Virus record (IMG/VR): IMGVR_UViG_3300033073_000980
Span: 1 to 64,000 of that record
Strand: one strand, 5' to 3'
Length of the DNA stretch: 64,000 nt
Source of the DNA: a virus
Taxonomy: Duplodnaviria; Caudoviricetes
Below the pieces are notes generated by a model. It searched no databases. It saw nothing but the letters and a program-made list of their open reading frames with translations, and was not told where the DNA came from. This document shows, in pieces, positions 46 to 63,030 of this stretch. Positions within the stretch are counted from its first letter, which is position 1. Each line of letters begins with the position of its first letter. Made by a program: the position numbers and the translations under genes.

Positions 46-63
46 AACCTTTATTTTTCTATA

Positions 64-100: not shown

Positions 101-284
101 AATTTTCATTCAGTAAAAAATCACCTATTTCAAGAATCAATTCTTCTTCATTGAATGAGTGACCCTCTTGAGTTAACGTCTCCATTGTAAAGACTACTTT
201 ACACATTGCTTCCAAAGCTTGCTCTAGAGTCATCACTTTCCCGTAAGCTTTCTCTAACTGAAATAAAATTCGTAGTTCTGTCAT
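99..284 (-). CDS. small acidic hypothetical protein
   Basis: ORF with its own promoter motif at 287-300 and GTT-ATG start. Confidence 0.7.
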   Translation of the reverse strand: MTELRILFQLEKAYGKVMTLEQALEAMCKVVFTMETLTQEGHSFNEEELILEIGDFLLNEN

Positions 285-4808: not shown

Positions 4809-4866
4809 AACCTATGTCTTTTTTACTATATAAAGATACGAATAAAGCTTTATATAAACAACTAAA

Positions 4867-9245: not shown

Positions 9246-9572
9246 TTATAATCCAGCAACAGAAGTTCTTTCTGCCTCCACTCTTGTCTGTCCTTCACTG
9301 TAAATGATCTTTCCTTTCTCATGCTCATTAGGATTGTATCGGATATTAGTCTTATAATAGTACAAAGGACCTTCGTAATCGAAAGTCTCAGTCCCTAATT
9401 GCTTACCTAATTCAATCGCTTTTGGCCCAGTTATTCTTCTAGGTCCGTTGAATGATCTAAAATCGATATCTAATACACGATACCACTTACCGTTGTTCAT
9501 TTGAACTTCACACGCCCAAGCAGTATTAAAATCGAATACTAATTTACCAGTATTGCCTCTTTTTTCTCCCAT
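9246..9572 (-). CDS. hypothetical protein
   Basis: ORF; promoter motif 3 nt upstream of the ATG. Confidence 0.7.
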   Translation of the reverse strand: MGEKRGNTGKLVFDFNTAWACEVQMNNGKWYRVLDIDFRSFNGPRRITGPKAIELGKQLGTETFDYEGPLYYYKTNIRYNPNEHEKGKIIYSEGQTRVEAERTSVAGL

Positions 9573-9587
9573 GCCTAAATATACGAA

Positions 9588-9794
9588 TTAATCTGGAAGT
9601 AAGCCAGCTTTTTCTACTGCTGTCCAAACTCTAGTTTTCCATAGATTAATATCTACTCCTTCAATTTCTTTAGCACCGTTAATGGTCTCTTTTGAAAGCT
9701 GAACAATGCATAGATCAAACATTCTATCTGCCTGTGCTAAATTTCCTTGTTTTGCAAACTTTCTACCTAGTTTAAATTTTTCCTTTAATGTCAT
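9588..9794 (-). CDS. hypothetical protein
   Basis: Start reassigned to MTLKEK; promoter at 9808-9821. Confidence 0.6.
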   Translation of the reverse strand: MTLKEKFKLGRKFAKQGNLAQADRMFDLCIVQLSKETINGAKEIEGVDINLWKTRVWTAVEKAGLLPD

Positions 9795-12315: not shown

Positions 12316-12370
12316 AACTTACTTTTTTAATTATTACTTAAATATATGAAAATCTTTTGAATAAATCAAC

Positions 12371-12769
12371 TTAAAGGTCGAATTTGTATACTATAAGTTC
12401 ATATAAATCTCCCGGTGTCTTGAAAAAGTACTCTGTTCCATCTTCATCCTCCCAGGCAATAATTTCTCCTGCTGCGTTCTTTCTTTCGTAAACATACCAC
12501 CATACAATACTTGCAACCTCTTCATTAAAGGTAAACTGTAAGATTTCTTCCATCATAGTCCAGTATGGAGAAACAATAGTAGAAGTATCAATACCTGTAG
12601 TAGTGAAAATTTTATGTTCGTGAGCAACTAATTTTTCTAGATGAGTAATCATCTTAGTAAATAGTTTCTTCTCTTCTTCTAATCCAGAATCTTCTACTAT
12701 ATCAACAACTTTAAACCTAACCCCAAGAGCTTTTTCTAAAGTCTTTTTTATATTTTCAAAACCTTCCAT
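12371..12769 (-). CDS. hypothetical protein
   Basis: ORF. Confidence 0.7.
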   Translation of the reverse strand: MEGFENIKKTLEKALGVRFKVVDIVEDSGLEEEKKLFTKMITHLEKLVAHEHKIFTTTGIDTSTIVSPYWTMMEEILQFTFNEEVASIVWWYVYERKNAAGEIIAWEDEDGTEYFFKTPGDLYELIVYKFDL

Positions 12770-37045: not shown

Positions 37046-37058
37046 TACTTAAATATAT

Positions 37059-37089
37059 GAAAAAAGCCCTTGGAATGCAAGGGCTCTTT
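37059..37089 (-). terminator. intrinsic terminator superimposed on the polA promoter
   Basis: GCCCTTG-CATTC-CAAGGGC plus T-run, directly followed by TATATTTA and the ATG. Confidence 0.75.
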
Positions 37090-37109
37090 AAAGTTTATTT
37101 TTGTTTTAA

Positions 37110-37709: not shown

Positions 37710-37723
37710 ATATTATAAATATG

Positions 37724-38744: not shown

Positions 38745-38769
38745 AATCTATAATATAAATATAGGAACT

Positions 38770-45880: not shown

Positions 45881-46024
45881 TTAAAAATTAAAACTGTCAG
45901 TTAAATTCAAGCAAGTGTCTGGTGTATTCTGCTGATAATCTTGTATATCAATTGTTTTACTTGATACCCATACTATAATGCTGAATAGTAATATTAGAGC
46001 AACACTGTAAGGGTTTAGTTTCAT
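45881..46024 (-). CDS. 47-aa membrane/secreted microprotein (MKLNPYSVALILLFSIIVWVSS...)
   Basis: Hand-translated; TAATG coupling. Confidence 0.5.
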   Translation of the reverse strand: MKLNPYSVALILLFSIIVWVSSKTIDIQDYQQNTPDTCLNLTDSFNF

Positions 46025-46419
46025 TAAGGGAAGAAGTAGAAGCTTGTTCTATTAGTTTTATCAAACACAACAATACCTAACCCACCTTCAATCTGTTTAA
46101 CAACGATCTCCATATTCCTCTGGGCTTTGGTATTATAAACCTTAACATAAGCTGCATCACCTGCTCTTTTATACTCTAAGATATCATAATTAACAGTCCC
46201 GTTAGAAATCATTCCTGTATTATAATCAGTAATGTTGAATGTCCAATCTGTTACAAAGGTAGTAAGATCGTTGTTTGAAACAAAGTCCCATTCCTCTGTT
46301 TGGTAGTTGTAAATCATTTTGGAAGTACTTACTGTGTTAGTTCGTACTGTGGTTGTGGTGTATTGGGCTGAGGCTGTGCCTGAGATTAAAACCAATAATA
46401 TTAATAATAACCGTTTCAT
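46024..46419 (-). CDS. secreted beta-rich hypothetical protein
   Basis: Bacteroidota-style signal peptide MKRLLLILLVLISGTASA-Q. Confidence 0.7.
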   Translation of the reverse strand: MKRLLLILLVLISGTASAQYTTTTVRTNTVSTSKMIYNYQTEEWDFVSNNDLTTFVTDWTFNITDYNTGMISNGTVNYDILEYKRAGDAAYVKVYNTKAQRNMEIVVKQIEGGLGIVVFDKTNRTSFYFFP

Positions 46420-50341: not shown

Positions 50342-50379
50342 ACCGTAAAGATATGAAGAATGTTTTAATAAAACAACTA

Positions 50380-50520
50380 CTAATTTTCTTCTTCTAGATC
50401 CTCTACCATTACATTTAATGCTAGATCTAGTGCATGGAGGTCATCCCACAAATCTTCTTCTCCTAAGTCGGCATCAAGCCACTCTCTGTCTTCGTCTGTT
50501 AATTCTTCCGGTGTAACCAT
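50380..50520 (-). CDS. 46-aa hyperacidic microprotein
   Basis: Hand-translated; TAATG-coupled to the holin; 19 D/E residues. Confidence 0.55.
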   Translation of the reverse strand: MVTPEELTDEDREWLDADLGEEDLWDDLHALDLALNVMVEDLEEEN

Positions 50521-50921
50521 TATTCTGATTTATGTCTGTCAATTTTATTTAGGATTGCTGCTAAGGCATCGTTCTTAATAAAGCCGGCTTGTTCTGCATT
50601 CTTTAATGCACTTATAACCTGGAATACTATTAATGGAATTAAAATCGTTTCTGATAACCATGATGTTCCTTTGAAACCTGCTTCAACCATTATTAGTGCC
50701 GTCAAAGTAATAATCCAGGCAACTAATGTTTTTAATATTCTTATTGCTTTGTAGGTCTTAAATCCTTCTCTTTTAGTTCCAGCAATAACGCCAAAGAAAC
50801 CATCCATAAAGATTACTGCAACAACGGCCAGATATTGGTCCGAGTTTTCCATTGCTAAGTTAAAAAAGTAGCTGCATACAAACGCAAATGCAGCCGTTGT
50901 TGTCAGTAGAGTCTCTTTCAT
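50520..50921 (-). CDS. phage holin (Phage_holin_4_1-like)
   Basis: Three hydrophobic segments, IFMDGFFGV, ISALKNA..AG; near the endolysin. Confidence 0.75.
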   Translation of the reverse strand: MKETLLTTTAAFAFVCSYFFNLAMENSDQYLAVVAVIFMDGFFGVIAGTKREGFKTYKAIRILKTLVAWIITLTALIMVEAGFKGTSWLSETILIPLIVFQVISALKNAEQAGFIKNDALAAILNKIDRHKSE

Positions 50922-50922
50922 G

Positions 50923-51303
50923 TTATCCTATTTCTTCGTCTAAGTGATCTGGTATTCCGTCTCCGTCAACGTCGCAAATTTCAACGTATCCGAATGCTTT
51001 CATGAATTTAGCAACCCTTTCCTTCAGGTCGTTATCACTATCCTCAAACCAATCTTCTTTTAGATTGTCGTGATCTAGAATATTAATTAGAGCATCGTAA
51101 AGCTTATCAACATCTTCTACTAAATAAATATCAGATGCTGCAAAGTCTAAACTAAAAGCATAGTCGTCAATTTGAGGAATTTTTAATAAATCATCAATCT
51201 TGCCGATCTTCTTTTCTTTTAAAGGCATTTCCTTTCCAAACTTGTGGAAGTACTCACCTACATAGATGTACCCTTGTCCTTCTTTTAATTGAAACTCACT
51301 CAT
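50923..51303 (-). CDS. hypothetical protein, degenerate T5orf172/GIY-YIG-like with C-terminal DxDxDG loop
   Basis: GYIYVG...KIG...EDWF; DVDGDGIPD. Confidence 0.55.
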   Translation of the reverse strand: MSEFQLKEGQGYIYVGEYFHKFGKEMPLKEKKIGKIDDLLKIPQIDDYAFSLDFAASDIYLVEDVDKLYDALINILDHDNLKEDWFEDSDNDLKERVAKFMKAFGYVEICDVDGDGIPDHLDEEIG

Positions 51304-52136
51304 TACTTTAATAAATTATAATATTCTCTGAAATGTTTAATTCTGTCTGCCAGGCCAATAGTACCTCCGTTAACTCTTTTAGTAACAGCCGTAACTGTTG
51401 CATCATCAGCTCCTCTGTCGCAGATACCCCAAAGTCTGTTTGTATCAAAGAACCAAGCAGCAGATGCTAAAGGATACTTTGTAGCTACTAAATCAGGATT
51501 GGCTGTTGTATCTTCAGGTACAAACTTATCAAAAGCCACGTAGTTTGCTTTTCCAGTTAATTGGATATAACCACGACCTCTATATTTGTAACCTTCTCCT
51601 GTTGCTTCAGGACCGTTACCCATTCTACCTCCGTAAACTCTTGAGGCAATCTTCTCTGGCTTACGAGCATAAGCTTCAGCTAAAGCCAAAGTTGGAAAGT
51701 ATCTTCCAAAAATACCCATCAAACCTTTTGAAGAATAGTTTAGATTCTCCTGAACAGCTTTGAAACCTCCTGATTCATGACCACATTGTGCCAAGAAATG
51801 GGCAAGTCTCAAAGGAGATGTTATATTAAATTTAGCAGCAGTCTCAGGAATCTGAGCAAGTACTGCATCGGGAACGTGTCCCTTTAGATTGTTTAACTTT
51901 AATGGACCTGATGAGATTGGAGCTGCAGCTGGTGCAGGGGCAGTACCTGGAGTTATCCCGAACATTTTATTCCATGTTCCGTCTCCTACTATACCGTCAG
52001 GAGTTAAGCCATTGGCTGCTTGCCAAGCCTTAACTGCCTCTTCAGTCTTAGGTCCAAAGTTTCCTATAGGCTCCACGCCTAATTTTACCTGGAGCTTTTT
52101 AACGTTTTCGTTATTATCACCTCTTTTTAGTAACAT
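51303..52136 (-). CDS. modular endolysin: PG_binding_1 plus GH19 domain
   Basis: G.FGPKTEEAVKAWQ..NGL.PDGIVG; AHFLAQCGHES, ENLNYS, YRGRGYIQLTGK.NY, INGG-like VNGG..GL.DR. Confidence 0.93.
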   Translation of the reverse strand: MLLKRGDNNENVKKLQVKLGVEPIGNFGPKTEEAVKAWQAANGLTPDGIVGDGTWNKMFGITPGTAPAPAAAPISSGPLKLNNLKGHVPDAVLAQIPETAAKFNITSPLRLAHFLAQCGHESGGFKAVQENLNYSSKGLMGIFGRYFPTLALAEAYARKPEKIASRVYGGRMGNGPEATGEGYKYRGRGYIQLTGKANYVAFDKFVPEDTTANPDLVATKYPLASAAWFFDTNRLWGICDRGADDATVTAVTKRVNGGTIGLADRIKHFREYYNLLK

Positions 52137-52138
52137 AA

Positions 52139-52399
52139 TTAACCTTCTTCTTCTGGGCTTTTGTTATCTTGTTTCTTGTTAATCCATTTATCTACTGATG
52201 CAATACCAAATGATCCTAGAACCATTACCATGAAACCATCAAAAATAATCTTGTTAAGAACAAACTCCTTACCAGAATAACCAGTGATGATGTCTACAAT
52301 AAATGCAATACATAGCATAAAGAATGCAACAAATCCTACAACACTTTTTTCATTAATGCTGTTGTTGTCGTCGAATAATTGTGAGAAAAATTTTTTCAT
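52139..52399 (-). CDS. two-TM membrane protein (holin-like / lysis accessory)
   Basis: Two TM helices; immediately upstream of the endolysin. Confidence 0.6.
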   Translation of the reverse strand: MKKFFSQLFDDNNSINEKSVVGFVAFFMLCIAFIVDIITGYSGKEFVLNKIIFDGFMVMVLGSFGIASVDKWINKKQDNKSPEEEG

Positions 52400-52400
52400 A

Positions 52401-52853
52401 TTAGAATTGTTTAGTTGTTTTAGTTAAACTTTCTTGTAACGCTTTAGAAAACGCCTTTCGGTTTAACGGAACTTCGTTGTTTTCAACGTTTAAAAACATT
52501 GCAAAAACAAACGTTCTTCTTTCACCAACTGATTTGAAACAACCTGAACCAATACAAATACTGGTCTCAACAATATAATCTTTTCTCAACCATTGGATTC
52601 CCATGATGTTTAGTATTTGCTGGGGTGAGTAAATACTATCTATCCCAACCTGAACATCAAAAGCAACTCCTGAATCAACAGGGGTGTATCCTTTATTGAT
52701 TAAAAGCTCTTCGACTTCTTCTTTAACTCCAAAAGTAACATTCCTACCCCCAATCGTTTCGATGTGCTGGTTGTTATTAACATGCACTTTAACGAAGGTA
52801 GTATCTTTAATTGGAGCTAATGCAAATAGTATAGAAGCGAGTGTGCTTAACAT
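52401..52853 (-). CDS. exported protein, probable second CsgG-fold subunit
   Basis: Signal-like N-terminus; RNVTFGVKEEVEELL and KAFSKALQESL parallel KNVGLGFAESVLDYL and STVGKATRKSL in 55158-55853. Confidence 0.5.
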   Translation of the reverse strand: MLSTLASILFALAPIKDTTFVKVHVNNNQHIETIGGRNVTFGVKEEVEELLINKGYTPVDSGVAFDVQVGIDSIYSPQQILNIMGIQWLRKDYIVETSICIGSGCFKSVGERRTFVFAMFLNVENNEVPLNRKAFSKALQESLTKTTKQF

Positions 52854-52865
52854 CTATTATAAATA

Positions 52866-53849
52866 TCAGTAAGTCACCTGTCCGGCATAGCCTGGAGCAA
52901 TAATATACAAACTTAATGTACCTCCTGAAGTTAAAGTTGAGGTTGTATATGTAGATACTCCCGGGTAAGTAGCTCTTGTGTTTATTTTTGCTGCTTTGAT
53001 AGCATTATATTCAGCAGTAGTGAAAATACGAACATCAGGAGCTGTTCTCCATCTAGAAAATAAGCCAGCCTTCCTCGCTGCCACGTAATATTTATCTGCT
53101 ATTGAAATCGCCCCGTCATCATTAACATCAAACATATGATAAGACAATCCATTCCTAACTGTCTTCCCTAATATTAAATTAGATACTCCTTGAATGTCTG
53201 TGTTGTTATAAGCTTGAACTCTGGTTGGGGCTGATATTTCAATATAATATTCTTTTGAAGGATCATAACTTTCCGAAATAGAGTAGTACCCTGATGAATT
53301 AGTGTAGATAGTTTTGTATAAAGTCCATGAAGAAGTTGTAACTAGGTATTCAAATTCCAATACATAAGCAAGGCTAGAAGTTCCATTTAAGTCATTCCAT
53401 CTTCCTCCAGATACAAATTGAACATAATCTTCATTACCTGAGTTATTTGGTTCTCCTGAGTTCCAGTTAGTGTAGGAATAAGTTTCTCCTGTGACCCATC
53501 TCCAAGTTCCCTCTGTTACTTCATCTGTAAGTCCGATCCACCCTGAGGGCCATAATCCGAATATGAACGATTGCTCTCCTGAGCTTGTAATTGTTACTAA
53601 ATGCCCGCCCATATTTGCACAATTAGACTTCGCTATTTGCCAGTTTGCCGTTCCTGTAGATCTATAATAAGAATGCCCGTTGTAGTTCTGCTGGTTAGTG
53701 AATCCAGTGATAGTTGAGTTTGTTCTTCTATAAAGTTTAACAGCAACGTTATTTGCTCCTGATCCGTTTGCATTATACAAATACCCTGAATAAGTAAATT
53801 GTCCTAGCAGAGAATTTGTTAATAGTAAAAATACAACAAGTAATCTCAT
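52866..53849 (-). CDS. secreted C-type lectin / prealbumin-like / dockerin-like protein
   Basis: Signal peptide; CTLD motifs W..A...C...GGHLVTI, WIGL, WNSGEPNN, WNDL; DVNDDGAISIAD. Confidence 0.85.
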   Translation of the reverse strand: MRLLVVFLLLTNSLLGQFTYSGYLYNANGSGANNVAVKLYRRTNSTITGFTNQQNYNGHSYYRSTGTANWQIAKSNCANMGGHLVTITSSGEQSFIFGLWPSGWIGLTDEVTEGTWRWVTGETYSYTNWNSGEPNNSGNEDYVQFVSGGRWNDLNGTSSLAYVLEFEYLVTTSSWTLYKTIYTNSSGYYSISESYDPSKEYYIEISAPTRVQAYNNTDIQGVSNLILGKTVRNGLSYHMFDVNDDGAISIADKYYVAARKAGLFSRWRTAPDVRIFTTAEYNAIKAAKINTRATYPGVSTYTTSTLTSGGTLSLYIIAPGYAGQVTY

Positions 53850-55174
53850 AATAGTAATTTAGCTCCCATTAATATTTGGTAGTTAAGTACACTCTGACTA
53901 GCAACATAAGTTCCACCTCCGGTTAATCCAACTCCAAACGTCTTAGTTAGTTTATAATTAAAGTTAAAGAAGGGAATGATGATTGGCTTTGCTTCAAAGA
54001 GAGACTCTGTGTAATACTTGGTATACGGTGAATATACACAGGCTGCTATTATAGTAGCATCCAAAGCTCTTGCTAACTTACCTTTGTACATAAACCCTCC
54101 AATAGCTAAAGTTGAAATCATTTCTTCTCCGTAAAGGTTTCCATAGGTTCCAGCTGCTCCGTAGAGTGCTGTAAAGTTTTTAACTGAGTTTACTCTGACT
54201 GCTAATGCTGTATTAGACCAAGATTTAGGTAAGATACCAAAAGCATCTGAAACTACATTGATGTGTTTGTTTCCTTTTTTGTTAACTCCAATCCAGGATC
54301 TCATTACTGAAAGGTTTCCAATCCGGGCATTAACCATGTAATCGGCTGAGAATCCTAATGAGGCTGTTCCGTCTCCTTTTACTCTAGTGAAGGACATAGT
54401 TCCTCTTGCATCCCTAGATCCATCATCTGCTTTTTGAACTCCAACAATATCTCCTGTAACTAAGATTGCAGGCTTGGCAACTTCTGCTTTTGCTTTAGAG
54501 GTTGACTTAGCTGTTGAGTTAGAAGACTCTTTCTGAGTTTCGGTCTTCTGTTCTTCTACTTGCTGTTCGGTTGGCTTGTCTTCTGTTTTCGGTTCTTCTG
54601 TTTGTCCTTGTCCAGACCCGGAACCGCCGCCATTGCCACTGCTACCAGAAGAGGACCCACTGCTACCACTAGAACTAGTATTGCCTGAAGTATTGCTTGC
54701 ATCGGAGTTCTGGTTCGTATTCGACTGAGGATTTCCATCTTCTTGTTTGTTATTTGAAGTACTTACCGATCCGGTACCTGTTGAAGTTGCACCTCCTACA
54801 TTTGTTCCTACTGATGTAAATGACCCAACGTTGGCAATAGAATTTAAGTTCATTACACTATTAACAACGTTTGAAGCCAAGTTACTCGATGTGGTCGTTG
54901 TAGTTGTTGCTACTGCCCCTTGACATGGAGAGGTTGACTTGTATTTATTATAAGTATCAAGCATCCATAAATCAAAGGTTCCATCTTGTAGTTCAACATA
55001 GCTAAACGTTCTAATCTGATTATAATAAACAACCACAATCGGGCTATTCATATCAGCGGTTATAAACTTGCTTTCTTTCGTACAAGGATCAATATACGAA
55101 TAAAGAAAGGACTGCCCGTTTAGAGACAGTCCTATCATAAATAAAAATAATAATATTTTAGTTTTTAAAGACAC
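53846..55174 (-). CDS. secreted protein with S/T/G/N-rich linker and putative C-terminal beta-barrel
   Basis: Signal peptide ending in G-Q; low-complexity middle; amphipathic beta-strands ending YQILMGAKLLL. Confidence 0.6.
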   Translation of the reverse strand: MSLKTKILLFLFMIGLSLNGQSFLYSYIDPCTKESKFITADMNSPIVVVYYNQIRTFSYVELQDGTFDLWMLDTYNKYKSTSPCQGAVATTTTTTSSNLASNVVNSVMNLNSIANVGSFTSVGTNVGGATSTGTGSVSTSNNKQEDGNPQSNTNQNSDASNTSGNTSSSGSSGSSSGSSGNGGGSGSGQGQTEEPKTEDKPTEQQVEEQKTETQKESSNSTAKSTSKAKAEVAKPAILVTGDIVGVQKADDGSRDARGTMSFTRVKGDGTASLGFSADYMVNARIGNLSVMRSWIGVNKKGNKHINVVSDAFGILPKSWSNTALAVRVNSVKNFTALYGAAGTYGNLYGEEMISTLAIGGFMYKGKLARALDATIIAACVYSPYTKYYTESLFEAKPIIIPFFNFNYKLTKTFGVGLTGGGTYVASQSVLNYQILMGAKLLL

Positions 55175-55853
55175 CGTTCCTGATTAAGCTTTCAATTACT
55201 TTAGTTGTAGCAGTCTCTAAAGACTTTCTAGTTGCTTTACCAACAGTGCTTTGTGAAAACTTCATATCAAGACTCTTCAGGAATGATTCTCCTACTTTAG
55301 TTGCTTCTCCCTCTCCTGAGCCGATGTATACTTGTCCGGTCATTGCATCCACGAACCGAACTTGGAGGCGTAAGAAAGTAGTAACGACAACTTTGCTCTT
55401 ACCTTTCTCAACAGTCTCGTCTTCATCAACAGCAAAATCGGCCACAGTAACATAAACAAAGTAACGAGCAGCTTTAATTTTACCCTTTCCATCAATGGGC
55501 TCTTCGAAGACTCCTTTCTTTGAGGCTTTGAATTGGGTAACCATCCGTTCTTTGATTTCGGACTTTTCTTCGGTGAATATAAATCTTCCTGTTTCATCTA
55601 AATAATCTAATACTGATTCTGCAAAACCTAAACCAACATTCTTTTCTTGAAGGTCTGGGTATAGAGCTAGAACCTTGGTCATATCAACGTTAATTACCTG
55701 AACAGCATATTTTAAACTGTCTGTGTAATTAGATACTGTTGAGATGTCTTTGGTCTCAATAACATCCTGCTCGGTGGTAGTCTTCATAGAACCACATCCG
55801 GCTAATGTCATAACCACCAAGGTCATAAACTTATTGAACCATTTTTTTACCAT
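55158..55853 (-). CDS. CsgG/HfaB-family lipoprotein
   Basis: Lipobox LAGC; GRFIFTEE, A.YFVYVTVADF, LRLQVRFVDAMTGQVY..SGEG pattern of CsgG-like proteins. Confidence 0.72.
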   Translation of the reverse strand: MVKKWFNKFMTLVVMTLAGCGSMKTTTEQDVIETKDISTVSNYTDSLKYAVQVINVDMTKVLALYPDLQEKNVGLGFAESVLDYLDETGRFIFTEEKSEIKERMVTQFKASKKGVFEEPIDGKGKIKAARYFVYVTVADFAVDEDETVEKGKSKVVVTTFLRLQVRFVDAMTGQVYIGSGEGEATKVGESFLKSLDMKFSQSTVGKATRKSLETATTKVIESLIRNGVFKN

Positions 55854-56173
55854 GGATCTTCTTCTTTAGCGGGTTCAGCTTTAGCAGGAGCAGCTGCTGG
55901 CTTTTCAACTACACGCTCTTTAATGATTGTGTTTGTTCCACCACCTTGCTTAACTTGCTGTTTGTTCTCTTGATTCTGTTGAACGTTAATTACAACAGGA
56001 GCAGCAGAACTAGCAGGAGCTGCTTGTTCAGTTTTAACTTCTTCTTTAGGCTCGTCACCACCGCCTAAGTGGGTTACAAACCAAGCACCGCCGGCTGTAA
56101 CTGCTGTAGTGATAGCACCAATGATTGCTTTCTTGGTAGCTGACATTACGCTTTCTTCTTTTTCTTCTGACAT
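55847..56173 (-). CDS. single-pass membrane protein with A/P/Q-rich tail
   Basis: TM AIIGAITTAVTAGGAWFV. Confidence 0.7.
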   Translation of the reverse strand: MSEEKEESVMSATKKAIIGAITTAVTAGGAWFVTHLGGGDEPKEEVKTEQAAPASSAAPVVINVQQNQENKQQVKQGGGTNTIIKERVVEKPAAAPAKAEPAKEEDPW

Positions 56174-56174
56174 A

Positions 56175-58067
56175 TTATTTATTTATAATTATTTTTGAAG
56201 TTGAGATTTTAGTATCTGTTTTTACAGACATTAAATAAAAGCCGTTATCTAAAGGAGTTAAATTTACTAAGTATTTGTATTCTCCAGCAGGCATTTTGGT
56301 ATTGATAACCTCCATTACCTCTCTTCCAATCAAATCACTAACAGATACTTCAGTTTGAGATTCTTGCTCAACTTTAAATTGAACCATTACCTCACCTTGG
56401 GTTGGGTTAGGAAAGATAATAACTTCTCCTAAGTCGGTCAACTTAACAGGCTTATTAATTCTTCTTACTTCAATTACTCCCATGGCTGGAGTGATGTTCA
56501 TATCTCTTGCATCATCACCTCCAACAAATTTAGGACCGGTCCAGATTGCAGCACTACCCCATTCTGATTGAGGCTTCTTAGCAATGAATTGCATAGTTAA
56601 GATCTGCTCACCATCGTTGATTAATTGATTACCTTTTAAGTCAGCAGCACCAAAAGCAACTACTCCGTTATCAGGGCTAGTGTATGAAGTCCAATTCATC
56701 ATCTTTTCAGTCAAGTCAATTTTCTTGAACTCAAGTAATGCTGTGTCGTACTTTAACTCTAATTGAACTGCACCTAACTGTTTTCCGTTAGTAAGCATCT
56801 TAACAGGAACGTTAACTAAGTTACCTTCATCAACTTTAACCTTAGGCATATTAACTTCAATAGTCTCAGTTACATCATCATACTGAACTGTGTTATCAAT
56901 AATGTAATTCTTAGCATTGGTTGGGTTGATAATCTTAATAGGAGTCAAACGAGCCATCTTAAAGCCAGTTGCGTTTGCATCTCCTTTAACTGCTACATAG
57001 TAAGTAATTGAATCCTTACCATCAATTGAGTAAGTCAAGTTATTAACAGTAGAGTAAGTAGAAGTTAAGTTAGTAGCTGCTCCATTGATTGCATTAAATT
57101 CGGCAACAGTGAAGAACATTACATCCTTTTTAGAATTAGGCCAAGCATTAAATCTACCTGCCAATCTTCCATATACTGAATAAACATCTACAATGCTGAT
57201 TGTTCCATCAGTTCCGTTAACGTCCATTGTGTAGTAATCAAATCCTGAAGGAGTGTATTGAGCTAAGACTGCTTGGTTGATCTTCTGTGCATCAGCAGTT
57301 GAGAATACTGAACCAGGAGTCATTGTATCTCCTTTGATTGCCATTCTAACATCCCAGTAGGTAGTATCTAAGAATTTTCTGAATACAACATGACCTAGTG
57401 AGTTAGTTGCTTTAGCTTCTACTTGAGTCCAGGTTGAAGAACCTTTTGCTCTTTTCTCTAAAGATACCCACAAGTTCTTAGCATCTGAACCTGTAACGTT
57501 CTTAAACTTAGCAGCAAATCTTAACACCTTCTGATTGAAACGACCACCGTAAGAATAAACTACCAAAGTAGTATCATTACCCCAGTTAGTAGCAGCTTTG
57601 TTTGCAAATGATTTAACTCCGGCTACTTTTAAAGTCTTAATAGAATCTAAGTTGTTCCAGATAGCTTCTCCGGCATGAGTGAAAGTTAAATCAAAGGTTG
57701 CTCCATCAGAATAATTGAAAGTTGAGTTAGTACCTGTGTAAACAACAGTAACTGTTAAGAACCCTTGAGCATTACTATCTACATACTGTAAGTACTGGTC
57801 TGTAGTAGAAATCTTCAATGTAGGAACAACTCCGGTGAATGCAGTGTTATCGTAGTAAATACGGTACTGCATACCTGTAATCTTCTCAGAAGTAGATGTG
57901 TTGTAAAAATAAAGAGGGGCAACAGTTTGTCCGACAGTAGTTGTAGCTACTTGATAACCAGAATCAATTACTACCCAGTGCCCTGTTCCAGGTGAGGTTG
58001 ATGCTGATTGTGCCGATACTCCGAAAACGGCTAAGGCCGTTAGAAGAAATGCGATGAGTTTTTTCAT
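56175..58067 (-). CDS. T9SS-type secreted cohesin / dockerin-like scaffold protein
   Basis: Signal peptide; two cohesin-like domains (ITGMQYRIYYD; LGAVQLELKYDTALLEF); DVNGTDGTISIVD; C-terminal T9SS type A tail IFPNP...DLIGR...L.NGFYL...TSKIII. Confidence 0.85.
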   Translation of the reverse strand: MKKLIAFLLTALAVFGVSAQSASTSPGTGHWVVIDSGYQVATTTVGQTVAPLYFYNTSTSEKITGMQYRIYYDNTAFTGVVPTLKISTTDQYLQYVDSNAQGFLTVTVVYTGTNSTFNYSDGATFDLTFTHAGEAIWNNLDSIKTLKVAGVKSFANKAATNWGNDTTLVVYSYGGRFNQKVLRFAAKFKNVTGSDAKNLWVSLEKRAKGSSTWTQVEAKATNSLGHVVFRKFLDTTYWDVRMAIKGDTMTPGSVFSTADAQKINQAVLAQYTPSGFDYYTMDVNGTDGTISIVDVYSVYGRLAGRFNAWPNSKKDVMFFTVAEFNAINGAATNLTSTYSTVNNLTYSIDGKDSITYYVAVKGDANATGFKMARLTPIKIINPTNAKNYIIDNTVQYDDVTETIEVNMPKVKVDEGNLVNVPVKMLTNGKQLGAVQLELKYDTALLEFKKIDLTEKMMNWTSYTSPDNGVVAFGAADLKGNQLINDGEQILTMQFIAKKPQSEWGSAAIWTGPKFVGGDDARDMNITPAMGVIEVRRINKPVKLTDLGEVIIFPNPTQGEVMVQFKVEQESQTEVSVSDLIGREVMEVINTKMPAGEYKYLVNLTPLDNGFYLMSVKTDTKISTSKIIINK

Positions 58068-58525
58068 TTTTGTATGTTAGTTAATTGAGTTATTGCATGC
58101 TGTTTTAACCAAGGTTCAGGATTGTCTAACTTGTCAATAAAGTCAAGCTCGTACCTGTAACACCATGCTTCCTCTTGCTCAGGAATTATGATGTACCCTT
58201 TCTGTAAAACATGCAAATGCAAACTCTCATGAACTAACACCACTGCAAGGTTGTTAATTGAATTTAACTGCACATCTTTTATGGCAACCAGTATCGTTCC
58301 TTTGTTTCCATAACTTCCTTCATTAGAAGAAAAACCGGAAGACCAGAACTCTACCCTCTCACAAACACTATCTAACAACTGATACTTTTCAATATCTGTT
58401 TTTTTAATTAACTGTAATGCTGAATCTATTTTTTGATCCCATCCGTCACCGGCTTTGTCTACTTTTATTTGAGCGTAAGCTAAGTTGGCTATAAGTAACA
58501 AACTAGTTAGAAATAGACCTTTCAT
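58064..58525 (-). CDS. secreted zincin-like metallopeptidase
   Basis: Signal peptide; LVHESLH (HExxH) with downstream EE.WCY..E. Confidence 0.7.
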   Translation of the reverse strand: MKGLFLTSLLLIANLAYAQIKVDKAGDGWDQKIDSALQLIKKTDIEKYQLLDSVCERVEFWSSGFSSNEGSYGNKGTILVAIKDVQLNSINNLAVVLVHESLHLHVLQKGYIIIPEQEEAWCYRYELDFIDKLDNPEPWLKQHAITQLTNIQK

Positions 58526-58542
58526 GATTCTGTTATAAATAG

Positions 58543-58569
58543 AAAAAGGCCTGCGTTAACAGGCCCTTT
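58543..58569 (-). terminator. intrinsic terminator after nrdJ
   Basis: GGGCCTG-TTAACG-CAGGCC followed by TTTTT on the minus strand. Confidence 0.8.
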
Positions 58570-58590
58570 CTCAAACTTTTTCGATTAAGT

Positions 58591-60447
58591 TTATTTGATC
58601 TCACAAGCACCGCCGGCACAAGCAGCTTCTCCTGCTAGATCGGTCATATCTTCCATCTCAACTACCTTAGTCAAATCAAGGTCTGCCAATACAGAAAGTA
58701 ACTTTTCGTAAGTCTCTTTATCGCAATCCTCAAAAGGTAACTGCGGGTAATTAGGATCACTGTAAGGAAGTACTGAAAGTCCATTGTAAGATTTTCTATT
58801 CTCCCACATCCATTCTCCAACTGCTTCCCATTCGTTATCTTTAATAGAGATTGTGGCAGAGACGTTGTGAGTATTGTTTCCTTTGCGGTGACCGGGCTTA
58901 ATCCACTCCTTAGTTACTCGTTTTACTCTTTCTAGAAGATCAAAAGGTGATTCTGTTCTTAGAATTGCTCCTTCTGGTGCTTTTTGAGGCACGGTAATGA
59001 TTGCAGTATCGTGAGGACGGTTCTCGCAATCCTCGATTAACTCTGGGTGATTGATTGAAAGGTAAGTGTAAATTGCTTCATTCTTACCTACTCTCATTCT
59101 TCTTAGATAGTAGTCGTTATGCCATGCATGAATTCCACTAGAAGTTCCAAGTGTTAGAGAGGTTGTACCTGCAGGCTTAACTGTAGTACATCTGGCGGCA
59201 CAATTGATTCCTAAGATACCGGCAACCCTTTCATTCTCTGCTTTTACTATCTCGGCAGCCTCTGTCATATCGTAATTCAAAACAACGCCTGAACCAATAC
59301 CGGTCATTGATACTCCAATCAAAGCTTCTTTCTCAGTTGTTCTTTTCCAAACCTCTCTCAAGTAATGGAAGTCAGAATAACCTGCTTGCAAAGTTCCGAT
59401 CAAGGTTGCTGCTTTAACTCTACTGTTAAAATCTTCCTGAGACTCGATATCAGAAACATTTACTTCGCATAAGTTACAGAATTGGAAAGGACGTAAAGCA
59501 ATCTCACAGCATGGGTTAGTTCCCCACTCTAAGTTATTGGTGAAGTAGATTCCTGGTTCACCTGCTCCTGAATGTTCGATTCTTTTCCAGATATCCAAGA
59601 ACTGTTCTTTCTCGGTTGTGCCTCTAAGCAAAACTGCTGAGTTGTTAGCTCTTCCACGTTGAGGGTTCAATTCATACCAAGCACCAGACTTGGCAGCGAT
59701 CATCTCATCGTCATCGGCTGAGAATAAAGAAATCAAAGCAGCTCTTCTAATACCGCCGGCCAATACTGCATCAGCAATATGACAAACCATATCGTGAACT
59801 TCGATAGTAGTTAATCTTTGACCGTCTTGTTTTGCCTCAAGCATACCTTCTAACTTTGCCAAACACTCTCTCAAAGGAGCAGGTCCGGGTGCTTTACCGC
59901 CGGCAGTAACCAACCTAGCACCTTTAGGTCTGATATCTGAAAAATCAAACTCAATAGTAGAAGTTCCTCTGAAATAGGATTTCATTAGAACCTTAACTGC
60001 ATCAGCCCATCCTTCAATAGAATCTCCAACTAAGAATCTTTTCTTTCTGTTTGGATTTGGTTTTCTGATTTCAGGTAGTTTTTCTACATGCTCGTATTGA
60101 ACTGAGTAACCAACTCCGGTTCCGCCTAGTAACAAGAACATTACTTCACCAAATGCTCTCCAATCATCGATTGGTAAGAAAGCACAGTTGTAAATACGGG
60201 CAGGATTCACTTCGATAGGACGGCCGGCAAACTGCATCGACCTCATCGAAGGTAAAACCTTCTTGTCGTAAACGTACTTATAAGCTGCCTCAATTTCTTC
60301 TGCCATCGCAGGGTACTTCTTTTGATGCATCTCCTTGTTTCTTGAAACCAACTCTTCCCATGTTTCTCTTCGGTTCAAATGCGGTTGGTATTTCGCATAT
60401 TTTAAAAAGACCGTAACGTCGCTTAAAATTTTCTGACTAATATTCAT
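58591..60447 (-). CDS. nrdJ: class II (B12-dependent, monomeric RTPR-type) ribonucleotide reductase
   Basis: PSMRS, YNCAF, GGIRRAA, TNPCCEI, TVKPAGT, C-terminal CAGGACE. Confidence 0.93.
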   Translation of the reverse strand: MNISQKILSDVTVFLKYAKYQPHLNRRETWEELVSRNKEMHQKKYPAMAEEIEAAYKYVYDKKVLPSMRSMQFAGRPIEVNPARIYNCAFLPIDDWRAFGEVMFLLLGGTGVGYSVQYEHVEKLPEIRKPNPNRKKRFLVGDSIEGWADAVKVLMKSYFRGTSTIEFDFSDIRPKGARLVTAGGKAPGPAPLRECLAKLEGMLEAKQDGQRLTTIEVHDMVCHIADAVLAGGIRRAALISLFSADDDEMIAAKSGAWYELNPQRGRANNSAVLLRGTTEKEQFLDIWKRIEHSGAGEPGIYFTNNLEWGTNPCCEIALRPFQFCNLCEVNVSDIESQEDFNSRVKAATLIGTLQAGYSDFHYLREVWKRTTEKEALIGVSMTGIGSGVVLNYDMTEAAEIVKAENERVAGILGINCAARCTTVKPAGTTSLTLGTSSGIHAWHNDYYLRRMRVGKNEAIYTYLSINHPELIEDCENRPHDTAIITVPQKAPEGAILRTESPFDLLERVKRVTKEWIKPGHRKGNNTHNVSATISIKDNEWEAVGEWMWENRKSYNGLSVLPYSDPNYPQLPFEDCDKETYEKLLSVLADLDLTKVVEMEDMTDLAGEAACAGGACEIK

Positions 60448-62961: not shown

Positions 62962-62980
62962 AAGTTACTATTAATATAAT

Positions 62981-63010
62981 AAAAAAGCCCTTGACTTGCA
63001 AGGGCTCTTT
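62981..63010 (-). terminator. intrinsic terminator superimposed on the exonuclease promoter
   Basis: GCCCTTG-CAAGT-CAAGGGC plus T-run; near-identical to 37059-37089. Confidence 0.75.
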
Positions 63011-63030
63011 AAGATTTATTTTTTGGAATC

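What the first reader, a model, noticed from the sequence alone, without database searches (positions are those of the whole stretch)
52401..58569. Phage-encoded envelope secretion/adhesin operon: CsgG pore, T9SS cohesin-dockerin scaffold, lectin and protease
Seven consecutive genes, all with signal peptide, lipobox or TM anchor, are bounded by a terminator and a TATTTATA motif. In order: HExxH peptidase; cohesin-dockerin-cohesin protein with a T9SS C-terminal tail; membrane-anchored protein; CsgG/HfaB-family lipoprotein; S/G/N-rich putative beta-barrel protein; C-type lectin-dockerin protein; second CsgG-like protein. The lysis genes follow directly. None is a normal virion or replication gene. 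The set looks like a kit for building a modular, cellulosome-style glycan-binding structure on the infected cell surface or outer-membrane vesicles, using both the host T9SS and a phage-supplied outer-membrane channel. Possible functions are aggregating infected cells with new hosts, blocking superinfection, grazer evasion or assisting outer-membrane disruption. I know of no described phage system with this architecture.
Basis: partly seen in the sequence, partly recalled or inferred. Interest (0 to 1): 0.88.

Follow-up and report, generated by a model that had tools for sequence, protein, structure and literature searches.

The report
Phage-encoded cell-envelope lectin/cohesin module
A widespread group of large Flavobacterium phages carries a conserved block of six to seven exported proteins that probably re-equips the infected cell's envelope: a secretion-tagged cohesin scaffold, a sugar-binding lectin with a docking tail, a CsgG-fold lipoprotein, an outer-membrane barrel and others; its function is untested.

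Summary
Seven tightly packed minus-strand genes (58525-52401) all start with a signal peptide, lipobox or membrane anchor, follow a terminator and run straight into holin and endolysin genes.

Confirmed domains:
- A T9SS type-A C-terminal domain and a cohesin in the 630-aa protein.
- An EPN-type C-type lectin.
- A CsgG-fold lipoprotein (g4) and a small paralog (g7).
- A 12-stranded outer-membrane beta-barrel (g5).

Dockerins and the N-terminal cohesin get weaker support. The 'peptidase' is only a conserved HExxH...EE motif.

The 'CsgG pore' is not supported. The hairpin that forms the pore in CsgG is shorter and charged here, and bacteria use this domain fused to kinases and caspases. The barrel is the only channel candidate.

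Six of the genes keep their order in over 100 viral contigs and in the cultured Immutovirus phages. They are almost absent from bacterial genomes, so this is a phage core module, not a host operon. The lectin 'head' is swapped for PA14, GEVED or unknown domains in relatives.

Phage-encoded T9SS cargo has one precedent (Cryophage, 2020); the combined module has none that I found. Function is inferred only. Earlier scan notes I saw for this module are re-reads of this same stretch, not other DNA.

The parts
58543..58570 (-). Intrinsic-terminator-like hairpin plus T-run after the upstream 618-aa gene. It marks the upstream edge of the block.
   Evidence: 12-bp stem, 5 GC pairs, T-run; sequence read
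58064..58525 (-). g1, 153 aa. Signal peptide; invariant HESxH (99-103), EE (118-119) and two Cys (55, 122). Putative small periplasmic or secreted zinc peptidase. Present only in the window's own clade.
   Evidence: no family match beyond weak SprT-like in 2 of 14 homologs; absent from the Immutovirus clade
56175..58067 (-). g2, 630 aa scaffold. Order: signal peptide, cohesin-like N-domain, transthyretin/CarboxypepD_reg-like sandwich, dockerin-like double F-hand, cohesin, T9SS type-A C-terminal domain.
   Evidence: split into two genes (gp014 + gp015) in Immutovirus
57507..57941 (-). g2 residues 43-187: N-terminal cohesin-like domain (weak support).
   Evidence: profile of 13 homologs against PDB: Scaffoldin C cohesin 5lxv E 0.0067, ScaB cohesin 4ums E 0.018
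57132..57329 (-). g2 residues 247-312: dockerin-like pair of Ca-loop/helix repeats (GDTMTPGSVFSTADAQKI... and DVNGTDGTISIVDVYSVY...).
   Evidence: sequence; Dockerin_1 hits in 3 of 20 family members, best E 1.4e-5; the window protein itself has no Pfam hit
56547..56861 (-). g2 residues 403-507: cohesin domain.
   Evidence: PF00963 E 6.3e-11, 43.1 bits against cut-off 24.1
56184..56417 (-). g2 residues 551-628: T9SS type-A C-terminal sorting domain, at the very C-terminus.
   Evidence: PF18962 45.4 bits (cut-off 27), TIGR04183 43.1 bits (cut-off 23)
55847..56173 (-). g3, 108 aa. Acidic N-terminus (MSEE), one Gly/Ala/Thr-rich membrane helix, about 70 aa of disordered P/A/E/K/N/Q-rich tail ending in EEDPW. 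Its stop overlaps the g4 start codon, which suggests translational coupling.
   Evidence: present in 107 loci
55158..55853 (-). g4, 231 aa lipoprotein (LAGC) with a CsgG/PelC/LptE-type alpha/beta fold. It lacks an amphipathic transmembrane hairpin. It is the most conserved gene of the block (82-99% identity over 80 loci).
53846..55174 (-). g5, 442 aa. Order: signal peptide, about 70-aa N-domain with two invariant Cys (31, 84), length-variable S/G/T/N-rich linker (about 95-232), C-terminal 12-stranded outer-membrane beta-barrel.
53855..54469 (-). g5 residues 236-440: 12 predicted antiparallel strands forming an outer-membrane barrel. This part is 95-98% identical across the 120 best protein clusters. 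It ends in F in the Immutovirus clade (beta-signal-like).
   Evidence: AF2 pLDDT 70-83 in this part; Foldseek lists outer-membrane barrels plus some mitochondrial VDAC/porin barrels (TamA, NanC, KdgM, EspP, FapF among them); VIA Z 15-12 for CymA, PelB, PgaA, OmpG
52866..53849 (-). g6, 327 aa. Signal peptide, C-type lectin domain (68-163) with EPN (133) and WND (151), beta-sandwich, dockerin-like tail (about 215-262). No T9SS tail.
   Evidence: PF00059 65 bits; motifs; tail paralogous to g2 residues 210-364; head replaced by PA14, GEVED or unknown domains in relatives
52401..52853 (-). g7, 150 aa. Small paralog of the g4 CsgG-like fold. Most relatives have a signal peptide followed by Cys.
   Evidence: hhalign of the g7 family against the g4 family: probability 91.5%, E 8.5e-7, 120 columns; alignment
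50520..52399 (-). Adjacent lysis cassette, contiguous with the block. It holds an 86-aa two-TM holin-like protein (52139-52399), the endolysin (51303-52136), a 126-aa acidic protein (50923-51303) and a 133-aa four-TM holin-like protein (50520-50921).
   Evidence: An endolysin lies within 2.5 kb downstream of g7 in 39 of 61 window-clade loci and 10 of 32 Immutovirus-clade loci. It lies upstream of the module in L121.

Best explanation
This is a conserved accessory module of Immutovirus-like Flavobacterium myophages. Its products are all sent into the host envelope by host machinery (Sec, Lol, BAM, T9SS).

Inferred working model:
1. g2 (or its cohesin-CTD half in relatives) is carried across the outer membrane by the host type IX secretion system and fixed on the cell surface.
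2. Dockerin-like tails on g6 and on the N-half of g2 bind its cohesins. The infected cell, or material shed from it, then carries a Ca-dependent, mannose/GlcNAc-type lectin. In relatives a PA14, GEVED or other head takes its place.
3. g5 inserts as a 12-stranded outer-membrane barrel with a tethered N-domain. The CsgG-fold lipoprotein g4 and its mini-paralog g7 sit under it as periplasmic adaptors or plugs, as PelC does for PelB and LptE for LptD. The membrane-anchored, disordered g3 links this set to the inner membrane. g4 is not itself a pore.
4. The most likely purpose is to bind host-type surface glycans. That could mask receptors, limit superinfection or limit loss of progeny on debris. 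It could also stick infected cells to fresh hosts.

Shown here: gene order, export signals, domains and folds, conservation, phage restriction, head swapping. Inferred: every interaction, the localisation, the timing and the purpose.
For: - Export signals on all seven genes, clustered far beyond chance.
- CTD, cohesin and lectin score above the curated cut-offs. EPN and WND motifs are present.
- Dockerin_1, CarboxypepD_reg, PA14 and GEVED hits occur among homologs. The dockerin-bearing tail is shared by g2 and g6.
- In Immutovirus the anchor (cohesin-CTD) and the dockerin proteins are separate genes, as in anchoring scaffoldin systems.
- g4: 22 of 47 family representatives hit Pfam CsgG. The family profile hits E. 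coli CsgG at E 1.6e-6. Foldseek and VIA both rank CsgG first (Z 12.0), followed by PelC, FlgT and LptE.
- g5 barrel. PelB and PelC of one PDB entry (9h80) appear in the hit lists of g5 and g4 respectively.
- The six core genes stay syntenic in about 110 loci across clades that share only 23-45% identity.
- g4 (median 87%) and the g5 barrel (95-98%) are as conserved as the upstream 618-aa gene (median 88%, which I read as an RNR by eye only).
- The module is almost absent from bacterial genomes. Among isolates it occurs only in Immutovirus.
- Precedent for phage T9SS cargo: PMC7468147.
Against: - No experiment and no multimer model supports any of the proposed contacts.
- g6 and the dockerin half of g2 in relatives lack a T9SS tail, so their route across the outer membrane is unexplained. 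A 12-strand barrel is too narrow for folded proteins (established knowledge of such barrels).
- The window's own g2 and g6 do not reach Pfam's Dockerin threshold.
- The block abuts the lysis genes in about half of the loci. In this phage it looks co-transcribed with them (no room between genes), which fits a lysis role at least as well as early exclusion.
- The very high conservation of g4 and g5 is unusual for exclusion or 'moron' genes.
- The g5 model has low overall confidence (mean pLDDT 56).
Confidence: 0.42

Rival explanations
1. Lysis accessory complex. g3 (inner-membrane anchor), g4 (outer-membrane lipoprotein), g5 (barrel) and g7 form a periplasm-spanning set that weakens or breaks the outer membrane once the endolysin has cut the wall. 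This would be a Bacteroidota-specific functional counterpart of spanins. g2 and g6 would help by gripping surface glycans, or would be unrelated passengers.
For: - g3 and g4 have the layout of an overlapped two-component spanin: an N-terminal TM protein whose stop overlaps the start of a lipoprotein gene.
- No other TM + lipoprotein pair sits next to the holin and endolysin.
- The block runs into the lysis genes without a gap.
- An endolysin is adjacent in 49 of 93 informative loci, and on the other side of the module in L121.
- The strong conservation suggests an essential step.
Against: - g4 is a 231-aa globular CsgG-fold protein, not a short proline-rich o-spanin.
- g3's periplasmic part is low-complexity, without an evident coiled coil.
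- In cultured immuto the endolysin lies about 28 kb away. In other loci the neighbours are dCTP deaminase, PhoH, sugar epimerase or nuclease genes.
- A T9SS-tagged cohesin and swappable lectin heads have no obvious role in lysis.
- Small lipoprotein and TM ORFs elsewhere in the record could be the real spanins.
Confidence: 0.22
2. Trans-envelope sensor that tunes the infection programme or lysis timing. A surface lectin/cohesin complex reports glycan contact (other cells, adsorbing phages, particles). The signal passes through the barrel and the CsgG-like adaptor to the inner-membrane protein g3 and the neighbouring holin. RcsF threaded through OmpA-type barrels, or T4 RI-mediated lysis inhibition, would be loose analogies.
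For: - In bacteria the g4-type domain is the extracytoplasmic appendage of Ser/Thr kinases and caspase-like proteases.
- Both g3 and g5 carry long flexible periplasmic tethers.
- Holin-like genes lie next to the block.
- The ligand-binding heads vary between relatives.
Against: There is no signalling domain in any of the seven proteins, and g3 has only about 10 cytoplasmic residues. No precedent is known to me. The idea is built entirely on analogy.
Confidence: 0.1
3. Phage-supplied outer-membrane channel for uptake or export. g5, with g4/g7 as a periplasmic ring, would be a specific porin or a secretion gate. It would import nutrients such as nucleosides or sugars during infection, or export an unfolded protein or a polymer. 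g2 and g6 would be separate T9SS and periplasmic cargo.
For: - Language-model neighbours of the barrel include 12-strand specific channels (KdgM/OmpL, Tsx) and Pfam's Phage_OMP.
- Fold hits include NanC, KdgM, FapF, PgaA and PelB.
- g4 resembles PelC and CsgG, which serve export gates.
- The genomic neighbourhood is rich in nucleotide-metabolism genes.
Against: No sequence-level link to any porin family. Fold matches to barrels are generic (Z 12-15 for many unrelated barrels). The tethered N-domain and long linker are not porin features. No cargo is identified.
Confidence: 0.12
4. There is no joint function. The block would be a collection point for independent exported accessory genes ('morons') that travel together only because of linkage.
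For: g1 is clade-specific and the lectin gene changes position between clades. g6 heads and g7 types recombine independently.
Against: Six genes keep their order and co-occur in about 110 loci across deep divergence. Start/stop overlaps suggest coupled translation. Paralogous domains (g4/g7, and the g2/g6 tails) plus a matching cohesin and dockerin argue for one system.
Confidence: 0.1

Closest known systems
Phage-encoded T9SS cargo of 'Cryophage' (Bellas et al. 2020, PMC7468147)
   Same: A Bacteroidota phage encodes proteins that end in a T9SS type-A sorting domain, one of them a PA14-domain protein. They vary between phage variants, and the authors proposed secretion via the host system, with possible exclusion or competition roles.
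   Different: Cryophage is an unrelated 76-kb phage with single cargo enzymes (endoglucanase, GH39, PA14). It has no cohesin/dockerin pairing, CsgG-fold lipoprotein, barrel or membrane anchor. Here the CTD protein itself is conserved, and the variable head sits on a partner that has no CTD.
Cohesin-dockerin systems (cellulosomal anchoring scaffoldins; non-cellulosomal cohesin/dockerin modules)
   Same: A surface-anchored cohesin carrier plus separate proteins with Ca-loop dockerin-like tails that carry exchangeable functional heads. Profile hits go to ScaC and ScaB cohesins.
   Different: Anchoring is by a T9SS CTD rather than SLH or sortase. The heads are lectin-type binders, not enzymes. The system is encoded by a lytic phage. 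Binding is not shown, and the dockerins fall below Pfam's threshold in this window.
CsgG (curli secretion channel) / HfaB family, PF03783
   Same: Lipoprotein with the same alpha/beta fold. CsgG is the best structural match (Z 12.0, Foldseek E 6e-7) and there is a family-level Pfam link.
   Different: The TM1 hairpin equivalent is shorter and charged. No CsgE, CsgF or curlin partner is present. The domain is used in bacteria as a soluble appendage of kinases and caspases. g4 is therefore probably not a pore.
PelC-PelB and LptE-LptD outer-membrane pairs
   Same: A small lipoprotein of the same fold class works under or inside a beta-barrel encoded nearby. PelC/PelB (9h80) and LptE appear in the hit lists of g4 and g5.
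   Different: The g5 barrel has 12 predicted strands, compared with 16 for PelB and 26 for LptD (strand numbers from my own knowledge, not checked here). g5 has no TPR domain. No polysaccharide or LPS pathway is attached. The association is inferred from gene adjacency only.
Two-component spanins (lambda Rz/Rz1, T4 PseT.3/PseT.2)
   Same: An inner-membrane protein with an N-terminal anchor is followed by an overlapping gene for an outer-membrane lipoprotein, close to holin and endolysin genes.
   Different: g4 is large, globular and highly conserved. g3 lacks coiled coils. Extra barrel and paralog genes are present. The cassette is not always next to the lysis genes.
FapF and type Va autotransporter translocators
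   Same: An N-terminal domain, a long linker and a C-terminal 12-stranded outer-membrane barrel.
   Different: No plug or linker helix is predicted before the barrel. There is no amyloid or passenger domain, and no sequence similarity.
Phage and plasmid exclusion lipoproteins (T5 Llp, F-plasmid TraT)
   Same: Envelope lipoproteins made by a mobile element to block re-entry or mask receptors. TraT shows a weak fold match to g4 (Z 6.5).
   Different: Those are single proteins with known targets. Here there is a multi-protein set with lectin heads, and no phenotype is known.

Membership tests
CsgG/HfaB family (PF03783), curli-type secretion pore | N-terminal lipobox (lipoprotein) | tested here: met
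   g4 has LAGC at residues 17-20. The family consensus is L-x-G-C.
CsgG/HfaB family (PF03783), curli-type secretion pore | Sequence or profile homology to the family | tested here: inconclusive
   g4 itself has no Pfam hit. However, 22 of 47 family representatives hit CsgG (best E 3.7e-23) and 9 hit LpoB. The family profile hits E. coli CsgG at E 1.6e-6.
CsgG/HfaB family (PF03783), curli-type secretion pore | CsgG alpha/beta fold | tested here: met
   AF2 model with pLDDT 84. The top Foldseek hit is CsgG 6l7a, E 6.4e-7. The top VIA hit is CsgG 6lqh, Z 12.0, rmsd 3.3, 155 residues aligned.
CsgG/HfaB family (PF03783), curli-type secretion pore | Two amphipathic transmembrane beta-hairpins that build the 36-strand barrel | tested here: not met
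   The segment aligned to TM1 (g4 about 140-160, AVDEDETVEKGKSKVVV) is 6-8 residues shorter than in E. coli CsgG. It carries 8 charged residues and no hydrophobic face. All 47 family members are similar in this respect. TM2 was not aligned.
CsgG/HfaB family (PF03783), curli-type secretion pore | Ring oligomer and partner genes (CsgE/CsgF, curlin or holdfast subunits) | not testable with these tools
   No multimer prediction was available. No neighbour gave a Pfam or NCBIfam hit to curli or holdfast proteins.
T9SS type-A cargo (PF18962 / TIGR04183) | C-terminal sorting domain at the extreme C-terminus, above the curated cut-offs | tested here: met
   g2 residues 551-628 of 630: 45.4 bits against cut-off 27, and 43.1 bits against cut-off 23.
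T9SS type-A cargo (PF18962 / TIGR04183) | Sec signal peptide | tested here: met
   MKKLIAFLLTALAVFGVSAQ|S, conserved in 13 homologs. Read by eye and by hydropathy, not by a trained predictor.
T9SS type-A cargo (PF18962 / TIGR04183) | Host has a T9SS and secretion depends on it | not testable with these tools
   The host is inferred as Flavobacterium from the nearest isolate. That Flavobacterium has a T9SS is established knowledge.
Cohesin (PF00963) | Domain hit above the gathering score | tested here: met
   g2 residues 403-507: 43.1 bits against cut-off 24.1. The N-terminal domain (43-187) gives only weak hits to ScaC and ScaB cohesins, E 0.007-0.018.
Dockerin type I (PF00404) | Two Ca-binding loop/helix repeats recognised by the family model | tested here: inconclusive
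   The window's g2 and g6 give no hit at E <= 0.1. Three of 20 homologs hit, best E 1.4e-5. One listed hit scores 17 bits, below the cut-off of 22.9. D-x-N-x-D-G-x-I-x-x-x-D-type loops are visible in both proteins.
Dockerin type I (PF00404) | Binding to a cognate cohesin | not testable with these tools
   No complex prediction or assay was available.
C-type lectin domain (PF00059) | Domain hit and Ca/carbohydrate motifs | tested here: met
   65 bits against cut-off 22.6. EPN at residue 133 and WND at residue 151.
C-type lectin domain (PF00059) | Canonical disulfide pairs | tested here: not met
   g6 has a single Cys, at position 77.
Outer-membrane beta-barrel protein | Even number of antiparallel strands closing a barrel, with fold matches to OMPs | tested here: met
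   12 strands over residues 236-440, pLDDT 70-83. Foldseek and VIA list beta-barrels only, nearly all bacterial outer-membrane proteins plus a few mitochondrial VDAC/SAM barrels, with Z up to 15.0.
Outer-membrane beta-barrel protein | C-terminal beta-signal ending in an aromatic residue | tested here: inconclusive
   The barrel ends in ...GGKLNF or ...GGKIRF in most of the Immutovirus clade, but in ...GAKLLL or ...KLKI in the window's clade.
Two-component spanin | Type-II inner-membrane protein plus an overlapping outer-membrane lipoprotein gene near holin and endolysin | tested here: met
   g3 has a TM segment and g4 a lipobox. The genes overlap by 7 nt. The holin-like gene lies about 2.8 kb downstream.
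Two-component spanin | Short, unstructured, proline-rich o-spanin and coiled-coil i-spanin | tested here: not met
   g4 is a 231-aa folded domain. The g3 tail is low-complexity P/A/E/K/N/Q. No coiled-coil predictor was run.
Zinc metallopeptidase (gluzincin-like) | HExxH plus a downstream Glu ligand | tested here: inconclusive
   HESLH and EE are invariant in 14 homologs. No family or structure match was found beyond weak SprT-like hits (E 0.008, 2 of 14 homologs).

The most novel reading that the evidence does not exclude
A lytic phage builds its own multi-protein envelope machine in the host. It would be a cellulosome-style, T9SS-anchored cohesin platform carrying exchangeable glycan-binding heads. 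This platform would be physically coupled to a phage-made outer-membrane barrel, a CsgG-fold adaptor and an inner-membrane tether sitting next to the holin. The phage could then read or mask the cell surface and tie that to the end of infection: receptor masking, kin or host capture, or lysis timing. That would be a new class of phage-host interface in Bacteroidota, without a described equivalent.
Probability: 0.25. Interest if true: 0.9.

Novelty: new variant of a known kind. Interest (0 to 1): 0.66.

Why it matters
These phages are abundant in aquatic metagenomes: more than 1,000 protein clusters were found for g4 and for g5. One member, vB_FspM_immuto on Flavobacterium sp. LMO8, is in culture, so the module can be tested directly.

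If the model holds, it would show three things:
- Phages of Bacteroidota routinely use the host T9SS to redecorate the infected cell.
- Cohesin-dockerin assembly is used outside polysaccharide degradation.
- The CsgG fold serves as a periplasmic adaptor in a viral system.

It also bears on an open question: how phages of Bacteroidota deal with the outer membrane at lysis, given that canonical spanins are rarely recognised in them.

Tried and rejected
- **Host chromosomal operon: rejected.** g5 relatives occur in only 3 of 185,579 species genomes, all on phage-like or short contigs. g4 relatives occur in 2 of 201 sampled Flavobacteriaceae.
- **Virion or replication genes: no support.** No PHROG hits, and all the proteins carry export signals.
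- **g4 as a CsgG-type pore: rejected on the hairpin** and on the domain fusions.
- **g4-g5 fusion proteins as a Rosetta stone: none.** The long relatives are caspase or kinase fusions.
- **DGR mutagenesis of the lectin: no support.** No repeat family touches 52866-53849.
- **TATTTATA as a boundary signal: not enriched**.
- **Paralogs of the module elsewhere in the 72-kb record: none**.
- **g5 sequence links to porin families: none.** Pfam and PDB profile searches returned only low-complexity noise.
- **Literature:** searches for phage + CsgG/cohesin/dockerin, for the lysis cassette with barrel and lipoprotein, and for Immutovirus found no description of the module.
- **A wasted search:** my last protein search was run on 'longer' lengths and found nothing.
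- **Tools unavailable:** PADLOC was not run. The structure-prediction cap (2 jobs) left g1, g2, g6 and g7 unfolded and no complexes modelled.

Full report
**1. What is there**

The window is the first 64 kb of a 72,079-base IMG/VR virus record that CheckV estimates to be about 44% complete. Nearly all of the larger ORFs lie on the minus strand.

Between a terminator-like hairpin at 58570-58543 and the lysis genes lie seven ORFs with gaps or overlaps of 17 nt or less:

| Gene | Coordinates | Length |
|---|---|---|
| g1 | 58064-58525 | 153 aa |
| g2 | 56175-58067 | 630 aa |
| g3 | 55847-56173 | 108 aa |
| g4 | 55158-55853 | 231 aa |
| g5 | 53846-55174 | 442 aa |
| g6 | 52866-53849 | 327 aa |
| g7 | 52401-52853 | 150 aa |

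They run on without a break into an 86-aa two-TM protein, an endolysin (PG_binding_1 + GH19, phrog_181), a 126-aa acidic protein and a four-TM holin-like protein. The 11 genes from 58525 to 50520 therefore look like one transcription unit in this phage. That is an inference from spacing alone.

All seven genes begin with a signal peptide, a lipobox (g4, LAGC) or a membrane anchor (g3). A crude hydropathy scan flags only 22 of 128 ORFs in the whole record, so seven in a row is not chance.

**2. Domain checks**

*g2.*
- It carries a cohesin (residues 403-507, 43 bits) and a T9SS type-A sorting domain at its very end (551-628; 45 bits for Pfam, 43 bits for TIGR04183). All are above the curated cut-offs.
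- A profile of 13 homologs gives weak hits of the N-terminal domain (43-187) to ScaC and ScaB cohesins (E 0.007-0.018). Residues 182-222 hit transthyretin-like sandwiches.
- Residues 247-312 show two Ca-loop/helix repeats of dockerin type.

*g6.*
- It has a C-type lectin domain (65 bits) with EPN and WND motifs but only one cysteine.
- Its C-terminal half is paralogous to g2 residues 210-364.

*The g2/g6 family.* Among 20 members, Pfam finds CarboxypepD_reg (7), SdrD_B (6), Por_Secre_tail (5), Cohesin (5), Lectin_C (3), Dockerin_1 (3, best E 1.4e-5), GEVED (2) and PA14 (2). So 'cohesin-dockerin-cohesin-CTD' and 'lectin-dockerin' are reasonable readings. The dockerins and the first cohesin are less secure than the rest.

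*g1.* It keeps an invariant HESxH, an EE pair and two cysteines in 14 homologs, but matches no peptidase family.

**3. The two 'CsgG-like' proteins**

g4 itself has no Pfam hit. An exhaustive search found 160 relatives at 50% clustering.
- Of 47 full-length relatives, 22 hit Pfam CsgG (best E 3.7e-23) and 9 hit LpoB.
- Their profile hits E. coli CsgG in the PDB at E 1.6e-6.
- The language-model atlas also points to CsgG/LpoB clusters.
- The AF2 model (pLDDT 84) is closest to CsgG by Foldseek (E 6e-7) and by VIA-align (Z 12.0, rmsd 3.3 over 155 residues).
- Next come PelC, CT253, FlgT, LptE and PqiC, and more weakly TraT.

The g7 family aligns to the g4 family over 120 columns at 91.5% probability. 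It is a pared-down paralog.

The pore claim does not survive, for two reasons:
- The stretch aligned with CsgG's first transmembrane hairpin is 6-8 residues shorter. In g4 it reads AVDEDETVEKGKSKVVV, with no hydrophobic face, and the same holds across all 47 family members.
- In bacteria the same domain is found fused to caspase-like proteases and to Ser/Thr kinases. That is the behaviour of a periplasmic binding or adaptor domain, not of a channel.

**4. The barrel**

g5 has four parts:
- a signal peptide;
- a small N-domain with two invariant cysteines;
- a length-variable linker of about 140 residues, rich in S, G, T and N;
- a C-terminal part that is 95-98% identical among the 120 best protein clusters.

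AF2 predicts 12 antiparallel strands for residues 236-440, with pLDDT 70-83 there but only 56 overall. Foldseek and VIA-align return beta-barrels only, nearly all of them bacterial outer-membrane proteins (TamA, NanC, KdgM, EspP, FapF; CymA Z 15.0, PelB 14.6, PgaA 14.3). In most of the Immutovirus clade the protein ends in an aromatic residue, like a beta-signal. No sequence family is matched. The barrel, not g4, is the only channel candidate in the block.

**5. Distribution**

- Among 50,697 phage records, only the Immutovirus isolates (Flavobacterium sp. LMO8, Baltic Sea) carry g4 and g5.
- In immuto the order is lectin (gp013), dockerin protein (gp014), cohesin-CTD (gp015), then the g3, g4, g5 and g7 equivalents (gp016-gp019). 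They are annotated as lectin, cohesin-domain or hypothetical proteins.
- IMG/VR holds well over 100 contigs with the same order, many from genomes of 105-176 kb.
- Median identity to the window over these loci:

| Gene | Median identity |
|---|---|
| upstream 618-aa gene | 88% |
| g4 | 87% |
| g3 | 77% |
| endolysin | 77% |
| g2 | 76% |
| g5 | 76% |
| g6 | 70% |
| g7 | 68% |
| g1 | 55% |

- g1 is confined to the window's clade.
- The g6 slot carries Lectin_C, PA14, GEVED or unrecognised heads on the same tail.
- Bacterial genomes almost never carry the module. g5 relatives turned up in 3 of 185,579 species genomes. One is a 16.5-kb contig, one a 2.2-kb contig, and one a 248-kb contig in a Flavobacteriaceae MAG. 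On that last contig the flanks are a ClpB-like ATPase, Hsp20 and unknowns, and the holin-like gene and endolysin lie just upstream of the module.
- g4 relatives were found in 2 of 201 sampled Flavobacteriaceae.

**6. Link to lysis**

An endolysin lies within 2.5 kb downstream of g7 in 39 of 61 window-clade loci and in 10 of 32 Immutovirus-clade loci. Elsewhere the neighbours are dCTP deaminase, PhoH, a cytidylyltransferase with a sugar epimerase, or a nuclease. In cultured immuto the endolysin is about 28 kb away. The association is therefore frequent but not obligatory.

**7. Reading**

The best-supported picture is a phage core module whose products are all delivered to the host envelope. 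It has two parts: a T9SS-anchored cohesin platform with dockerin-tailed, head-variable glycan binders, and an outer-membrane set (barrel plus CsgG-fold lipoprotein and paralog) tied to an inner-membrane protein.

Which biological end this serves cannot be decided from sequence. I put the candidates as follows:

| Explanation | Confidence |
|---|---|
| Surface re-decoration that binds host-type glycans (receptor masking, exclusion, aggregation) | 0.42 |
| Lysis / outer-membrane-disruption role for g3-g4-g5-g7 | 0.22 |
| Uptake or export channel | 0.12 |
| Trans-envelope sensor | 0.10 |
| No joint function | 0.10 |

The main gaps are these:
- How the CTD-less dockerin proteins would cross the outer membrane.
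- Whether the proposed cohesin-dockerin and g4-g5 contacts exist.
- When the genes are expressed.

**8. Novelty**

- Phage-encoded T9SS cargo was reported once, for the unrelated 76-kb Cryophage, and it included a PA14 protein. The authors proposed secretion by hijack of the host system (PMC7468147).
- 'CsgG' is an automatic name on at least one uncultured-phage protein in BFVD.
- I found no description of the combined, conserved module in the paper library.
- I therefore class it as a new variant of a known kind (phage-encoded envelope-directed accessory proteins). There is a real chance that it is a new kind of machine.
- The earlier scan notes I saw for this module are first-stage re-reads of this same stretch. 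One gave the EPN/WND lead, which I verified.

Noticed in passing
window 52-104, 286-327, 1599-1651, 1802-1854, 2272-2324, 4817-4869, 9562-9614, 12336-12377, 50343-50384: A repeated motif, ACCTAAATATA(C/T)GAA on the + strand, occurs at these sites. On the coding strand it reads TTCGTATATTTAGGT and sits in front of small genes. It looks like a phage promoter family resembling the Bacteroidota -7 box. There is no copy inside the envelope block. One copy lies just after the lysis cassette.
   Followed up: no
window 37052-37102 and 62973-63023: Two copies (86% identical) of a 51-nt element holding a GC-rich hairpin (AAAAAGCCCTTG...CAAGGGCTCTTT). It is probably a shared terminator.
   Followed up: no
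window 37714-37721, 38754-38761, 52858-52865, 58534-58541 (minus strand): TATTTATA is not enriched overall. However, four of its seven minus-strand copies lie 5-10 nt upstream of start codons, including those of g1 and g7. It may be part of a start-site context or a promoter for nearly leaderless mRNAs.
   Followed up: partly
G000 beyond the window: 66710-66970, 67127-67396, 70782-71039 (minus strand): Small ORFs with lipoboxes (86 aa with ...VVLGSC, 85 aa with ...MISSC) and an 89-aa N-terminal TM protein lie here. They are alternative candidates for spanin-like or exclusion proteins.
   Followed up: no
window 46024-46419 (minus strand): A 131-aa ORF has a textbook signal peptide (MKRLLLILLVLISGTASAQ) and a Thr-rich start. 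It is another exported protein outside the block.
   Followed up: no
proteins P0168, P0190, P0205, P0234, P0235, P0238 (relatives of g4): The short CsgG/LpoB-like domain is fused to caspase (Peptidase_C14) domains and to Ser/Thr protein kinases in other organisms. This suggests a widespread role as an extracytoplasmic binding or sensor domain.
   Followed up: partly
L111:8864-10254 (viral contig IMGVR_UViG_3300023109_000032): In this divergent clade the module is followed directly by a cytidylyltransferase and an NAD-dependent sugar epimerase/dehydratase. These are sugar-nucleotide enzymes sitting next to glycan-binding proteins.
   Followed up: no
window 58591-60447 compared with L001 gp010: The 618-aa gene upstream of the block looks like a ribonucleotide reductase by eye only (TNPCCEI-type motif). 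It has no BLAST similarity to the NrdA gene that lies near the corresponding place in phage immuto. This may be a non-orthologous replacement.
   Followed up: no
L120 (RFPL01000028.1, a 16.5-kb contig binned as a Sphingomonadaceae MAG): This contig carries the phage module at 60% identity with the same gene order. It is probably a phage contig mis-binned into an alphaproteobacterial MAG.
   Followed up: partly
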